Source of the DNA: the human T2T-CHM13v2.0 reference genome, Homo sapiens
Assembly: GCF_009914755.1 (NCBI RefSeq)
Contig: NC_060934.1
Length of the DNA: 64,000 nucleotides
Strand: one strand, 5' to 3'
Made by a program: the position numbers and the translations under genes. The notes beneath the pieces are model-generated. The model had not been told where the DNA came from, made no database searches, and saw nothing but the letters and a program-made list of their open reading frames with translations. Below are positions 59,868 through 63,897 of the stretch, in pieces. Within the stretch, counting starts at the first letter, position 1. Each line of letters opens with the position of its first letter.

Positions 59868-60227
59868 TGATATGGTTTGGCTCTGTGTCCCCAACCAAGT
59901 CTCATATTGAATTGTAATAATGCCCATGTTTCATGGGAGGGGCCCAGTGGGAGGTAATTGAATCTTGAGAGTGGGTTTTTCCCATGCTATTCTCATAACA
60001 GTGAATAAGTCTCGTGAGATCTGATGATTGTATAAAAGGGCAGTTCCCCTGCACAAGCCTTCATGCCTGCTGCCATGTAAGACATGTCTTGCTTCCCTTT
60101 TACCTTTCACTGTGATTGTGGGGCCCCTGCAGCCATGTGGAACTGTGAGTCAATTAAACCTCTTTCCTTCATAAATTACTCAGTCTCAGGTATGTCTTTA
60201 TTAGCCACGTGAGAACAGACTATTACA
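59868..60227 (+). mobile_element. THE1B-like MaLR solo LTR
   Basis: tgatatggtttgg...gactattaca; perfect TSD TAAGG; TATAAAA at 60031; donor CAG|GTATGT at 60189/60190. Confidence 0.93.
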
Positions 60228-61350
60228 TAAGGGTTCCCATTTCTTCACATCTTTGCCAGTATTTGTTTTGTTTTTTGTCTTTTTGGTAATAACCATTCTA
60301 CTTGGGGTGAGGTAATATCTCATTATGGTTTTTGTTTGCATTTCCCTCATGATTAGTGATGTTGAGCATTTTTTTACACTCCTGTTGGCAATGTTTATGT
60401 ATTCTTTAGATAAATATCTGTTCAGATCTTTTGCCCATTTTAAAATTCAATTATTTAGCTTTTTGCTATTGAGTTGTTTGAGTTCTTTATATATTCTGGA
60501 TATCAGCCACTTGTCAGATGCATAGTTTGCAAATATTTTCTCCTATTCTATAGATTGTCTCTTCACTCTGTTGATTGTTTCCTTTGTTGTACAAATGCTT
60601 TTTAGTTTGCTATAATACCATTTGTCTATTTTTGCTTTTGTTGCCTATGCTTTTGAGCATAGGCAACAAAAAATCCTTGCCCAGGCCTATGTCCTAAAAC
60701 ATTTCCCCTATGTTTTCTTCTAGTAGTTTTACAGTTTCAGGTCTTACATTTAACTCTTCAATCCATTTTGAGTTGATTTTTTTTAATATGGTGAAAGAAA
60801 GTGGTAGAGTTTTATTCTTCTGAATGTCAATATCTAGTTTTCTCAGCACCATTTACTAAAGAGGCTGTCCTGTCTCCCAGTGTGTGTTCTTGACACCTTT
60901 GTCAAAAAAAATCAGTTGGCTATAACTGCTTGCATTTATTTCTGGGTTCTCCATTCTCTCACATTAGTCTATATGTCTTGTTTTTATGCTAATATCATGT
61001 TGTTTTGGTTACTATAGCTTTGTAGTGTATCTTGAAGTTAGGTAGTTTAATGCCTCCAGCTCTGTTCTTTTTGCTTAAGATTGCTTTGGTTATTTGGGTT
61101 TTTTTATGGTTTGGTACATATTTTAGGATTGTTTTTTCTATTTTTGTGAAGAATGTTAATTTTTTTGATCGGGATTGCATTGAAATTCTAGATCACTTTG
61201 TGCAGTATGAACATTTTAACAATATTAATTCTTCTAACCCATGAACATAAAATACCTTTCCATTTATTTGTGTCCTCTTCAGTTCGTTTCATTGATATTT
61301 TATATTTTCATTGTAGAAATCTTTCACCACTTTGATTCAATGTATTCTTG

Positions 61351-61660
61351 GTTTGTTGTTGTAGTTGTTGTTTTTGAGACACAGTCTCACTCTATTGCCC
61401 AGGCTGGAGGGGAGAGGCACTATCTCGCCTCGCTGCAACCTCTGCCTCCCGCATTCAAGCAAGTCTCCTGCCTCAGCCCCCCAAGTAGCTGGGATTACAG
61501 GTGTGCACCACCATGCCTAGCTAGTTTTTGTATTTTTAGTAGATACAAAACGGGTTTCACCATGTGGCCAGGCTGATCTTAAACTCCTGACCTCAGGCAA
61601 TCCTCCTGCCTCAGCCTCCCAAAGTGCTGGGATTATAAGCGTGAGCCACCACACCCAGCC
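61351..61660 (-). mobile_element. AluS
   Basis: Reversed dimeric Alu with (GTT)n tail. Confidence 0.9.
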
Positions 61661-62464
61661 CAGGGATTGCTTTCTCGATTTCTTTTTCAGATAGTTTGCT
61701 ATTGGTGTATGGAAACAGTACTAATTTCTGTATGTTGATTTTGTACCATGCAACTTTAATGAACTTATGAATTCTAACGGTTTTTTTGGTGGAGACTTTA
61801 GAAGATCACGTCATCAGCAGACAGAGAAAATTTGACTTCTTTCTTTCCAATTTGGATGCTCTCTATTTCTTTCTCTTACCTAATTGCTGTGGCAGGGACT
61901 TCCAGTACTATGTTGAATACAAGTGGTGAAAGTGGGCATCCTTGTCTTATTCCAGATTTTAGAGGAAAAGCTTTCAGCTTTTTTTTACTCAATATGATAT
62001 TAGCTGTGGGTTTGTCATATATGTCCTTTATTGTGTTGAGATATGTTCCTTTTCACACCTAATTTGTTGATGATTTTCATCATGAAGGGATGTTACCTTT
62101 AGTCAAATCCTTTTGTTGACGTTGATTGAGACGATCATATGGTTTTTCTCCTTGCAGAGTCTCATAGGAGTCCTCAGTGAAATGCAAGACAGCGCAGGTT
62201 CCTGACAGCATCTCTCCATCCAGGCCAAGGCAGACTGGCCGTCTCACAGCTGGATGGGGACACAGATCGAGTTCTGGCAACTGAAATGTGAGTGGACTTA
62301 AATGGGTCGCTTCTCAGCTAAGGCAATGGTAGTTCCCTCTTCTGGTGCATGGGCTGAGAGGGCCCCGTGTTCCAAGAGGCATAGCCACTGGTTGGTGAGG
62401 GGCTGTGATACGTGAACAAGCATGGGCTTGAGGGACTGGGGAAAGGGAGCGATTAAGAAGTGCA

Positions 62465-62769
62465 GGCCGGGCATGATGGCTCATGCCTGTAATCTCAGCA
62501 CTTCGGGAGGCCAAGACGGGAGGATCACTTGAGGTCAGGAGTTTGAGACCAGCCTGACCAACATGGTGAAACCTCGTCCTACTAAAAATACAAAAATTAG
62601 CCAGGCGTTGTGGCACACGCCTGTAATCCCAACTACTTGGGAGGCTGAGGCAGGAGAATCACTTGACTCCGAGAGGTGGAGGTTGCAGTGTGCCGAGATC
62701 AGCCATTTCACTCCAGCCTGGGCGACAGAGCGAGACTCCATCTCAAAAAAAAAAAAAAAAAAAAAAAAA
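62465..62769 (+). mobile_element. AluS (Sx/Sz-like)
   Basis: Full Alu, long poly(A), TSD AAGAAGTGCA. Confidence 0.95.
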
Positions 62770-62798
62770 GAAGTGCAGCAATTAAGAATGAAGACATT

Positions 62799-63897
62799 GG
62801 GCGTCCGGGCGAGGCTCGGGGCGCGAGGATCGCGCAGGGCAGCGGGTTCGCCAGCCGGGGGGAGGGGCCGGGGCGGTGGCGGCGGCGGCGCAGGAGGCGG
62901 TGGCGGCGGGGGCTGGTACTGGACCCGGCGGGATGAGCGAGGTGGAGGCGGCAGCGGTGGCGACAGCGGTCCCCGCGGCGACGGTGCCCGCGACGGTGGC
63001 AGGGGTGGTAGCGGTGGTGGTACCGGTGCCCGCAGGGGAGCCGCAGAAAGCAGGCGGCGGGGCGGGCGGCTGCGGCGGGGACGGAGCCGCCTTGGACCCC
63101 GCTGCTGGGACCCCCTCGGCGCCGGGCCCCCGCACCCCTGGCAACCCGGCGACGGCGACCTCGGGAACCCCCGCCCGGAGTCAGGCGGACAAGCCGGTGC
63201 TGGCAACCCGAGTCCTGCCTGGGCACTGCCAAACGGTTCAACGTCCGGAGTGGTTACGGATTCACCAACAGGAATGACGCCAAGGAAGATGTCTTCGTTC
63301 ACTGGACAGCTGTTAAAAGAAACAACCCCAGGAAGTTTCTGCGCAGCGTTAGAGATGGGGAGACTGTGGAATTTGATGTCGTGGAAGGAGAGAAGGGCGC
63401 AGAAGCCACTAATGTAACTGGGCCCAGGGCGGCGGGGGTGCCCATGAAGGGCACCGTTATGCCCCCAACCGACGTAGGTTCCGCTGATTCATCCCCGGCC
63501 TCCCTCAGTTGCCCCACCACCCATGGTGGCAGAGATCCCCTCTCGGGGGACAGAACCTGGCGGCGAAGGGGAGCGGGCCGAAGACTCTGGGCAGCGGCCC
63601 AGACGATGGCGCCCCCCACCCTTCTACCTACGGCGGTTTGTGCGAGGCCCCCGGCCCCCCAACCAGCAGCAGCCTATAGAGGGCACTGATGGGGTAGAAC
63701 CAAACAGACAGCCCCATTGGAGGGGCACCAACAGCAGGGAGATGAGTGGGTCCCCCCGCCCAGATTCCGGCCCAGGTACCTAAGGCCTTTACGCCCCAGG
63801 CCACCCCAGCAGCCTACCATGGAAGGTGGGGACAGTGATACCAAGCCCAGCCAAGGAAATTATTTTTTAAAAAAATTAAAAATAATAAATAATAAAA
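62799..63897 (+). pseudogene. YBX2P1: Processed pseudogene of Y-box binding protein 2 (YBX2/MSY2), probably YBX2P1
   Basis: ATG at 62933 gives MSEVEAAAVATAVPAATVPAT...ADKPVLA; cold-shock domain ([28 protein letters not shown]) in a shifted frame; no introns; frameshifts and a TGA; A-rich tail; TSD AAGAATGAAGACATT (62784-62798, 63898-63912). The P1 designation is from memory. Confidence 0.93.
62800..63350. promoter_or_regulatory. Retrocopy-derived CpG island
   Basis: Very high GC and CpG density over the YBX2 5'UTR and first coding region. Confidence 0.8.

What the first reader, a model, noticed from the sequence alone, without database searches (positions are those of the whole stretch)
59868..63897. 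Candidate LTR-driven transcription unit crossing a retrocopy CpG island (possible oocyte-methylated or imprinted DMR)
Seen in sequence, all on the + strand: a THE1B LTR with TATAAAA (60031) and a strong donor CAG|GTATGT (60189/60190); a well-formed 130-nt exon at 62158-62287; and, ~500 bp further, the CpG island of the YBX2 retrocopy with one ZFP57 hexamer (GCGGCA, 62948). Established: MaLR LTRs start transcripts in oocytes, transcription across a CGI directs de novo methylation there, and retrocopy CGIs can become imprinted DMRs (PPP1R26P1 in RB1, NAP1L5, INPP5F_v2). Inference: these parts form a primate-specific LTR-exon-CGI unit giving maternal or variable methylation.
Basis: partly seen in the sequence, partly recalled or inferred. 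Interest (0 to 1): 0.8.

Follow-up and report, generated by a model that had tools for sequence, protein, structure and literature searches.

The report
Retrocopy CpG island, published maternal DMR
The CpG island carried by the YBX2P1 processed pseudogene is already in print as a weak, variable, maternally methylated region, while the LTR-driven transcript proposed to explain it has no support so far.

Summary
Their weight differs.

**Real features**
- A MaLR-type solo LTR lies at 59868-60227, with a 5-bp target-site duplication.
- YBX2P1 (62799-63856) is a processed retrocopy, with six YBX2 exon blocks collinear.
- Its 5' part is a strong CpG island (62800-63250: GC 0.79, CpG o/e 0.95).

**Family-typical or chance-level features**
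- The TATA box and the donor are ordinary for this LTR family: GT is kept in 24 of 27 other copies.
- The "exon" 62158-62287 and the single ZFP57 hexamer are no more than chance gives.

**The methylation prediction is already published.** Akbari et al. 2022 (eLife, PMC9255983) list DMR 19 "YBX2P1": maternal, germline, 326 bp, 32 CpGs. That size and CpG count fit only one place in the window, 63055-63380. The DMR is weak (0.34 maternal against 0.09 paternal), varies between samples, and has no ZFP57/ZNF445 peak.

**The LTR mechanism is unsupported.** The published list of 1056 human oocyte LTR-initiated transcripts has no chr10 row near this locus. Only 70 of 2593 methylated CpG islands in human oocytes lie in such transcripts. 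Both flanking genes are transcribed on the minus strand in oocytes, which gives an equally good or better source.

Verdict: known DMR, mechanism open, modest interest.

The parts
59868..60227 (+). MaLR-type (THE1-like) solo LTR, 360 bp, TG...CA ends, flanked by the 5-bp duplication TAAGG (59863-59867 and 60228-60232)
   Evidence: sequence; 39 near-full-length relatives at 82-85% identity, from 7502 first-look candidates; mean identity 83.3% to 27 copies. The subfamily name is recalled, not tested.
60031..60037 (+). TATAAAA box of the LTR
   Evidence: TATAAA is present at the homologous place in 16 of 27 other copies.
60153..60158 (+). ATTAAA, the LTR's own polyadenylation-type signal, 32 nt before the donor
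   Evidence: position. Kept in 23 of 27 other copies.
60187..60195 (+). Splice-donor-like CAG|GTATGT inside the LTR
   Evidence: Recalled-matrix score 9.56; 15 of 2852 + strand GT sites score as high. GT is kept in 24 of 27 copies and the identical 9-mer in 11 of 27.
60201..62150 (-). L1 ORF2 remnant on the minus strand. It hosts the LTR and an Alu (about 61380-61666), and its antisense strand supplies the pyrimidine tract of the 62158 acceptor.
   Evidence: 60201-60446(-) matches L1 ORF2p residues 1069-1128, E 1.9e-17; 61876-62052(-) matches residues 624-680, E 1e-21. The right-hand end near 62150 is read by eye; 62080-62313(-) gave no match.
62158..62287 (+). Candidate 130-nt exon in single-copy DNA; chance-level
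   Evidence: acceptor 11.1, donor 8.6; 12 equally good pairs in the window; 62140-62460 matches only itself in the genome.
62466..62769 (+). Alu with a 25-nt pure A tail, flanked by the direct repeat GAAGTGCAG (62457-62465 and 62770-62778)
   Evidence: The hub table masks 62461-62779. The name Alu is by eye, from recall.
62799..63856 (+). YBX2P1, a processed retrocopy of YBX2 from the 5'UTR onward. It is followed by a degenerate A-rich tail (63857-63899) and flanked by the duplication GAATGAAGACATT (62786-62798 and 63900-63912).
   Evidence: six exon blocks of C17:7190597-7195552(-) are collinear without introns, at 85-98% identity; non-CpG divergence 49 of 830; frameshifts and stops; cold-shock domain PF00313, E 1.9e-19, in a shifted frame.
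62800..63350 (.). Core CpG island, derived from YBX2 5'UTR and exon 1
   Evidence: GC 0.73, o/e 0.96, 69 CpGs; 48 of 54 parental exon-1 CpGs are kept, and only 3 have changed to TG/CA.
63055..63380 (.). Published maternal germline DMR 19 'YBX2P1' (GRCh38 chr10:123991870-123992195)
   Evidence: supplementary file 4 row: 326 bp, 32 CpGs; of 71 possible runs of 32 CpGs between 62500 and 64000, only 63055-63380 spans 326 bp.
62948..62953 (-). Single ZFP57-type hexamer (TGCCGC on the minus strand), outside the DMR
   Evidence: observed 1, expected 0.96. The paper counts 0 motifs in the DMR.
63904..63999 (+). L1 ORF2 remnant on the plus strand, the element the retrocopy inserted into
   Evidence: matches L1 ORF2p residues 1083-1114, E 2.9e-12.

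Best explanation
YBX2P1 is an old processed retrocopy that carried the CpG-rich 5'UTR and exon 1 of YBX2 into intergenic DNA between CPXM2 and CHST15. That created an orphan CpG island.

The island has stayed unmethylated in the male germ line, so its CpGs survived. It is methylated in oocytes, which makes it a maternal germline DMR.

Inferred step 1: the oocyte mark is laid down by ordinary transcription-coupled de novo methylation from a promoter other than the THE1-like LTR. The leading candidate is minus-strand transcription running from the CHST15 side toward or into CPXM2.

Inferred step 2: the island lacks ZFP57/ZNF445 binding, so the maternal mark is mostly lost after fertilisation. 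It survives only as a weak maternal bias that differs between individuals.
For: Shown in print:
- DMR 19 is maternal and germline. Methylation is 0.342 maternal against 0.091 paternal in 12 lymphoblastoid lines. There is no ZFP57/ZNF445 peak and no motif in the DMR. The macaque orthologue is partially methylated. Partial methylation was seen in 3 of 82 individuals and 2 of 26 tissues.
- Across 54 tissue WGBS samples, mean methylation ranges 0-0.58. Nine of 54 are at or above 0.35 and 23 of 54 at or below 0.10. Samples of the same tissue differ (lung 0.07 and 0.53; heart left ventricle 0.36, 0.02 and 0.08). Testis reads 0 and 0.16.

Shown here:
- The DMR maps uniquely to 63055-63380, inside the retrocopy.
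- Of 85 parental CpGs, 69 are kept and only 6 changed to TG/CA, against 5.9% non-CpG divergence. That pattern means long-term germline hypomethylation.
- The second YBX2 retrocopy, on C15, has decayed more: in its exon-1 block 23 of 42 CpGs are kept and 11 are TG/CA.

For a non-LTR source:
- Only 70 of 2593 methylated CpG islands in human oocytes lie in an LTR-initiated transcript, and 53% of the oocyte genome is hypermethylated.
- No chr10 LIT row starts or ends at 125.5-125.9 Mb (hg19) among the 1056 listed.
- In human oocytes CHST15 has RPKM 6.1, and CPXM2 has RPKM 1.36 with 92% gene-body methylation. Both genes are on the minus strand (hub table).
Against: - No oocyte RNA or methylation track could be examined at this locus, so the transcript that covers the island is unidentified.
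- CHST15's own gene body is only 43% methylated in oocytes, which weakens simple read-through from it.
- RefSeq places the island outside every annotated gene.
- The DMR rests on one study. The allelic difference is small (0.25), cell lines can carry aberrant methylation, and the locus is absent from the one held supplementary file of the 'imprintome' map.
- The authors found 4.83% of random CpG islands partially methylated in their control.
- Parts of the DMR are 87-98% identical to YBX2 exons, so the short-read WGBS support could include some cross-mapping. The long-read calls should not.
Confidence: 0.45

Rival explanations
1. The THE1-like LTR fires in growing oocytes. Its transcript either splices from 60189 to a downstream acceptor or runs on unspliced across the island. 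Transcription-coupled H3K36me3 and DNMT3A then methylate the island.
For: - The LTR is in sense orientation 2.6 kb upstream and keeps TATAAAA and a donor.
- THE1 and MLT1 are the main MaLR starts among human oocyte LITs.
- LIT-induced maternal DMRs are documented, for example MSTA at RHOBTB3 and THE1C at DNAH7.
- The authors say their catalogue underestimates LITs.
- By divergence the LTR (about 8% from its family's root) looks older than the retrocopy (at most 5.9%). It was therefore probably in place when the island arrived (inference).
Against: - The LTR is not among the 1056 catalogued human oocyte LITs.
- The base rate is 70 of 2593 methylated islands.
- Its motifs are shared by most copies of a family with thousands of members.
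- Its 2 CpGs give no sign of special protection; the 27 other copies average 2.5.
- Its own ATTAAA signal lies 32 nt before the donor.
- The proposed exon is chance-level, and a better acceptor lies at 61691.
- My rough estimate, from recalled copy numbers, is that about 5% of random islands would have a THE1-type LTR pointing at them within 3 kb.
Confidence: 0.08
2. A plus-strand transcript from the unannotated CpG-rich region at about 43860-44560, 18 kb upstream, crosses the island in oocytes.
For: That region passes the CpG-island criteria (43200-44564: GC 0.65, o/e 0.64, 79 CpGs). It ends in a strong plus-strand donor, AGG|GTGAGT at 44563, with a score of 10.07 that is higher than the LTR donor's.
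Against: - RefSeq annotates no transcript there (hub table).
- About 500 bp of the region is a G-rich minisatellite.
- Nothing shows activity in oocytes.
Confidence: 0.07
3. There is no true imprint. The island shows stochastic, genetic (cis) or cell-line-specific variable methylation, like a metastable epiallele. The maternal bias seen in 12 cell lines is a small-sample effect.
For: - The allelic difference is small, at 0.25.
- Only 3 of 82 individuals and 2 of 26 tissues reach the paper's partial-methylation criterion.
- There is large between-sample spread within a tissue.
- The locus is not in earlier DMR lists (the paper calls it novel) and not in the one imprintome file searched.
- 4.83% of control islands pass the WGBS test.
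Against: - The direction agrees with the gametes (oocyte >70%, sperm <20%).
- Testis is near 0.
- The macaque orthologue is partially methylated.
- Weak, polymorphic maternal DMRs are a recognised class.
Confidence: 0.2

Closest known systems
PPP1R26P1 / CpG85 in RB1 intron 2 (Kanber et al. 2013, PMC3839921; abstract read)
   Same: [quoted passage not shown] In both cases other retrocopies of the same parent have a different epigenetic fate, so the integration site matters. Here the C15 copy shows more CpG decay.
   Different: [quoted passage not shown] YBX2P1 is intergenic in RefSeq, no transcript from it is known, no imprinted gene lies within 2 Mb, and the allelic difference is far weaker.
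LTR-initiated-transcript-induced maternal igDMRs (Bogutz et al. 2019, PMC6908575; Brind'Amour et al. 2018, PMC6102241; passages read)
   Same: A primate-specific MaLR LTR lies upstream, in sense orientation, of a CpG island that is methylated in oocytes and not in sperm.
   Different: In those cases an oocyte transcript starting in the LTR was observed. Here none is catalogued. Those DMRs are promoter islands of genes, mostly kept in placenta; this one is a pseudogene island.
Imprinted retrogenes inside oocyte-expressed host genes (NAP1L5, INPP5F_v2, MCTS2, U2AF1-RS1). Gene names are recalled; the principle is stated in the PMC6908575 discussion.
   Same: A retrotransposed copy with its own CpG island acquires maternal germline methylation.
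   Different: Those retrogenes are expressed from the paternal allele and sit in host introns. YBX2P1 is frameshifted, intergenic, and has an autosomal parent.
Polymorphic imprinted DMRs such as VTRNA2-1 (named in PMC9255983 section 7)
   Same: Maternal methylation is present only in a fraction of individuals and is similar across the tissues of a person.
   Different: For YBX2P1, constancy within a person was not shown. Only between-sample spread was seen.

Membership tests
Retrocopy-borne maternal germline DMR (PPP1R26P1/RB1 type) | The CpG island lies within a processed retrocopy | tested here: met
   Six parental exon blocks are collinear without introns, with a target-site duplication and an A-rich tail. 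The DMR maps inside the copy.
Retrocopy-borne maternal germline DMR (PPP1R26P1/RB1 type) | Methylated in oocyte, unmethylated in sperm | not testable with these tools
   Reported by PMC9255983 under its rule of >70% in oocyte and <20% in sperm. Retention of 69 of 85 CpGs fits germline hypomethylation in the male line.
Retrocopy-borne maternal germline DMR (PPP1R26P1/RB1 type) | Lies inside a transcription unit active in oocytes | tested here: inconclusive
   RefSeq shows it as intergenic (hub table). Both flanking genes are transcribed in oocytes. No oocyte transcript map could be read at the locus.
Retrocopy-borne maternal germline DMR (PPP1R26P1/RB1 type) | Stable allelic methylation in soma with paternal-allele transcription | tested here: inconclusive
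   Methylation is weak (0.34 against 0.09) and variable. H3K4me3 is marked 'NotEnoughRead'. No expression data were seen.
LIT-induced igDMR (Bogutz/Brind'Amour) | LTR with promoter and donor, upstream and in sense orientation to the island | tested here: met
LIT-induced igDMR (Bogutz/Brind'Amour) | Oocyte transcript that starts in the LTR and overlaps the island | tested here: not met
   No chr10 row at 125.5-125.9 Mb (hg19) in the 1056-row human LIT table. The catalogue is admittedly incomplete, and the hg19 position rests on a recalled assembly offset.
LIT-induced igDMR (Bogutz/Brind'Amour) | DMR absent in species that lack the LTR | not testable with these tools
   No other primate genomes or methylomes are on hand.
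MaLR (THE1-type) solo LTR | About 360 bp, TG...CA ends, 5-bp target duplication, many dispersed copies, no internal region attached | tested here: met
   L1 sequence continues on both sides.
MaLR (THE1-type) solo LTR | Subfamily THE1B by diagnostic positions | not testable with these tools
No Dfam or RepeatMasker library is available.
Canonical ZFP57/ZNF445-maintained imprinting control region | ZFP57/ZNF445 binding and several methylated TGCCGC motifs | tested here: not met
   There are no motifs in the DMR and one in the island, against 0.96 expected. The paper lists 'None' for peaks.

The most novel reading that the evidence does not exclude
An imprint built wholly from mobile-element debris. 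A roughly 40-million-year-old THE1-type solo LTR, missed by the oocyte LIT catalogue because its transcript is short or rare, is the promoter that methylates a later-arriving retrocopy island. Differences between women in LTR activity would then explain why the maternal mark is present in only some people.
Probability: 0.07. Interest if true: 0.55.

Novelty: already known. Interest (0 to 1): 0.3.

Why it matters
The locus is one of 16 novel germline DMRs reported in 2022, and no cause has been proposed for it. That paper's main text contains none of the words 'retro', 'pseudogene' or 'LTR'.

Recognising it as a retrocopy-borne island places it beside RB1/PPP1R26P1. It offers a natural comparison: the same parental sequence landed on chromosomes 10 and 15 with different CpG decay. 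That bears on how integration site decides whether an imported island becomes a maternal DMR.

The practical weight is small. No imprinted gene lies within 2 Mb, the mark is weak, and the pseudogene is broken.

Tried and rejected
- Rfam found nothing in 59000-64000.
- Coordinate and name searches found nothing in the supplements of the embryo isoform atlas PMC10616205 (8 files) or the imprintome map PMC9665137 (1 file).
- In the Okae 2014 supplements the only hit was an unrelated decimal. No germline-DMR list containing this place was seen there.
- A main-text search by coordinates found 0 papers.
- 'YBX2P1' occurs in 2 papers. In the second, PMC12519442, the term was not within the 300,000 characters held.
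- A search for CPXM2 together with imprinting terms returned only general imprinting papers.
- A recalled CTCF consensus gave no site with at most 1 mismatch in 62600-63900, although the paper's table gives distance 0 to a CTCF track.
- 62080-62313(-) has no L1 or other PDB match, and 62140-62460 is single-copy. The candidate exon is therefore not recognisably repeat-derived.
The placental DMR lists of PMC5106035 and PMC4889973, and Akbari supplementary files 5 and 6, were not examined and may bear on persistence in placenta and on per-individual values.
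Full report
**What is in the sequence.** The window is T2T chr10:124806001-124870000 (hub note; confirmed as G000:C10).
- TATAAAA at 60031-60037;
- CAG|GTATGT with the exon-intron border at 60189/60190;
- an acceptor ending in AG at 62156-62157, and a 130-nt stretch 62158-62287 closed by AAT|GTGAGT;
- GCGGCA at 62948-62953.

**The LTR.** It runs from TG at 59868 to CA at 60227 and is flanked by TAAGG on both sides (59863-59867 and 60228-60232), so it is a solo LTR.
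- A search of the window's own genome scored 40 of 7502 first-look candidates. It listed 41 matches: the LTR itself, 39 near-full-length relatives at 82-85% identity, and one short partial match.
- I compared it with 27 other copies: the 7 loci plus the next 20 hits, fetched. These are the top-ranked hits, so they are biased toward similarity.
- Among them, GT at the donor is kept in 24 of 27, the identical 9-mer in 11, ATTAAA in 23 and TATAAA in 16. Mean identity is 83.3%.
- This copy has 2 CpGs, against a mean of 2.5 (range 0-7) in the others.
- The promoter-like and donor-like motifs are therefore inherited family features, not a peculiarity of this copy.
- 'MaLR/THE1' fits the termini, length and 5-bp duplication. 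The subfamily letter B could not be tested without a repeat library.

**The surroundings.**
- The minus strand of 60201-60446 encodes L1 ORF2p residues 1069-1128, and that of 61876-62052 encodes residues 624-680. The LTR therefore sits in a minus-strand L1.
- The antisense strand of that L1 also supplies the pyrimidine tract of the 62158 acceptor.
- 62140-62460 is single-copy in the genome and has no L1 match.
- An Alu with a 25-nt A tail and a 9-bp duplication follows (the name is by eye).
- After the retrocopy, the plus strand encodes L1 ORF2p residues 1083-1114.

**The retrocopy.**
- 62799-63856 matches six exon blocks of a gene at C17:7190597-7195552 (minus strand). The blocks are collinear and intron-free, at 85-98% identity. 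RefSeq names the copy YBX2P1.
- It starts in the 5'UTR, 133 nt before the parental ATG. It is flanked by a 13-bp duplication and ends in a degenerate A-rich tail.
- The reading frame is broken. The cold-shock domain is still recognisable in a shifted frame (PF00313, E 1.9e-19).

**The CpG island.**
- 62623-63680 passes the island criteria. The core 62800-63250 has GC 0.79, CpG o/e 0.95 and 64 CpGs. The window-wide o/e is 0.23.
- Against the parent, non-CpG divergence is 49 of 830 (5.9%). Yet 69 of 85 parental CpGs are kept and only 6 have become TG or CA.
- CpGs methylated in the germ line would have decayed several times faster than other sites (established knowledge). The island has therefore been protected in the germ-line lineage since it arrived.
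- A second YBX2 retrocopy, at C15:90828088-90829034, has decayed more. Its exon-1 block keeps 23 of 42 CpGs with 11 TG/CA, at o/e 0.74. All rows together give 49 of 89 kept, 22 TG/CA and non-CpG divergence 107 of 1196. Three of those rows, at query 129-228, look like an unrelated repeat.

**Chance controls.**
- TGCCGC/GCGGCA occurs 6 times in the window against 7.3 +/- 2.4 expected; 80 of 100 shuffles reach 6.
- A first-order model expects 0.96 in 62800-63350, where 1 is seen, and 0.32 in 63055-63380, where 0 is seen.
- I scored splice sites with position matrices recalled from memory, so scores serve for ranking only.
  - The LTR donor scores 9.56; 15 of 2852 plus-strand GT sites do as well.
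  - The 62158 acceptor scores 11.1; 25 of 4833 AG sites do as well.
  - The 62288 donor scores 8.6; 42 of 2852 GT sites do as well.
- Exon-like pairs of 50-300 nt with both scores at least as good number 8 on the plus strand (5 places, the candidate included) and 4 on the minus strand. None of the others coincides with an annotated exon.
- That gives about 0.2 expected by chance in the 2.6 kb between the LTR and the island. A stronger acceptor (13.1) lies at 61691.

**What is in print.** 'YBX2P1' occurs in two held papers. Akbari et al. 2022 (eLife, PMC9255983) list it among 42 novel imprinted DMRs, as maternal and germline. [quoted passage not shown]
- GRCh38 chr10:123991870-123992195, 326 bp, 32 CpGs;
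- smoothed methylation 0.342 maternal and 0.091 paternal;
- no ZFP57/ZNF445 peak and 0 TGCCGC motifs;
- distance 0 to a CpG island;
- a partially methylated orthologue in monkey;
- partial methylation in 3 of 82 individuals and 2 of 26 tissues.

'Germline' in that paper means >70% methylation in oocyte and <20% in sperm.

Mapping to the window: of the 71 possible runs of 32 consecutive CpGs between 62500 and 64000, only 63055-63380 spans 326 bp. This lies 17 bp from where a recalled assembly offset had put it. The DMR is therefore the 3' half of the retrocopy's island and excludes the hexamer at 62948.

Across the 54 tissue samples, mean methylation runs from 0 to 0.58. Nine samples are at or above 0.35 and 23 are at or below 0.10. 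Samples of the same tissue differ widely. The two testis samples read 0 and 0.16.

The main text of that paper contains none of 'retro', 'pseudogene' or 'LTR', so it offers no cause.

**Is the LTR the cause?** Brind'Amour et al. 2018 (PMC6102241; passages read) assembled 1056 LTR-initiated transcripts from human oocytes on hg19.
- They report that MaLR starts are mostly THE1 or MLT1.
- Only 70 of 2593 methylated islands lie in such a transcript.
- 53% of the oocyte genome is hypermethylated.
- They state that the catalogue is an underestimate.

In their Supplementary Data 3, no row on chr10 has a start, end or repeat id beginning 1255-1258. None begins 125750-125752 either. The hg19 position, about 125.75 Mb, rests on a recalled offset, but the span searched is 400 kb wide. 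The LTR is therefore not a catalogued oocyte promoter.

Okae et al. 2014 Table S2 (PMC4263407) gives oocyte values for the flanking genes:
- CHST15: RPKM 6.1, 43% gene-body methylation;
- CPXM2: RPKM 1.36, 92% gene-body methylation.

Both genes are on the minus strand, and the island lies between the 3' end of one and the 5' end of the other (hub table). Minus-strand read-through, or an upstream oocyte start feeding CPXM2, is thus at least as plausible as the LTR. A third candidate is the unannotated CpG-rich region at about 43860-44560. It ends in a plus-strand donor that scores above the LTR's.

**Most likely mechanism.**
- Shown: retrocopy origin, island quality, CpG retention, and the position of the published DMR.
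- From print: oocyte-high and sperm-low methylation, a weak maternal bias, variability, and no ZFP57/ZNF445 peak.
- Inferred: transcription-coupled de novo methylation in the oocyte from a non-LTR source, then poor protection after fertilisation because the zinc-finger maintenance system does not bind.
- Confidence is about 0.45 for the whole chain. The LTR model gets about 0.08, and 'no true parent-of-origin effect' about 0.2.

**Age (rough inference).** The LTR copies are about 83% alike, which puts each roughly 8% from the family root. The retrocopy differs from its parent by 5.9% at non-CpG sites, and a macaque orthologue is reported. Both insertions therefore predate the human-macaque split, and the LTR is probably the older.

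**Comparison with known systems.** The closest case is PPP1R26P1/CpG85 in RB1 (PMC3839921, abstract). It too is a primate-specific pseudogene island that became a maternal DMR, while sister retrocopies elsewhere did not. YBX2P1 differs in being intergenic, untranscribed as far as is known, more than 2 Mb from any imprinted gene, and much weaker. It meets the structural features of LIT-induced DMRs (PMC6908575, passages) but fails the defining one, an observed LTR-initiated oocyte transcript. It does not meet the criteria of a canonical ZFP57-maintained control region.

**Verdict.** That makes the DMR already known. The LTR-exon-island 'unit' is an unproven and, on present evidence, unlikely explanation.

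Noticed in passing
window 43200-44564: A second CpG-rich region (GC 0.65, o/e 0.64, 79 CpGs). About 43370-43860 is a G-rich minisatellite of GGGGAGG-like units. 43860-44560 is unique CpG-rich DNA that ends in a strong plus-strand donor, AGG|GTGAGT, at 44563. RefSeq annotates nothing there, so it may be an unannotated promoter.
   Followed up: partly
L010 (G000:C15:90828088-90829034, minus strand): A second processed YBX2 retrocopy, 81% identical to YBX2P1 and extending further 3'. It shows more CpG decay: exon-1 block o/e 0.74, 11 of 42 parental CpGs now TG/CA. It is a natural integration-site control.
   Followed up: partly
window 59955-59965: The LTR carries a DUX4-type site with one mismatch to a recalled consensus, which bears on cleavage-stage rather than oocyte activation. 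A second one-mismatch match lies on the minus strand at 60146-60156.
   Followed up: partly
window 14848-14856: The same 9-mer, CAGGTATGT, occurs on the plus strand with the same score. It overlaps the annotated minus-strand CPXM2 alternative exon 14834-14957. It may belong to another MaLR LTR.
   Followed up: no
window 63055-63380: The paper's table gives distance 0 from the DMR to a CTCF-site track. A recalled CTCF core consensus finds no site with at most 1 mismatch in 62600-63900.
   Followed up: partly
window 62466-62769: An Alu with an uninterrupted 25-nt A tail and a perfect 9-bp duplication lies immediately upstream of the retrocopy. It looks younger than its neighbours.
   Followed up: no
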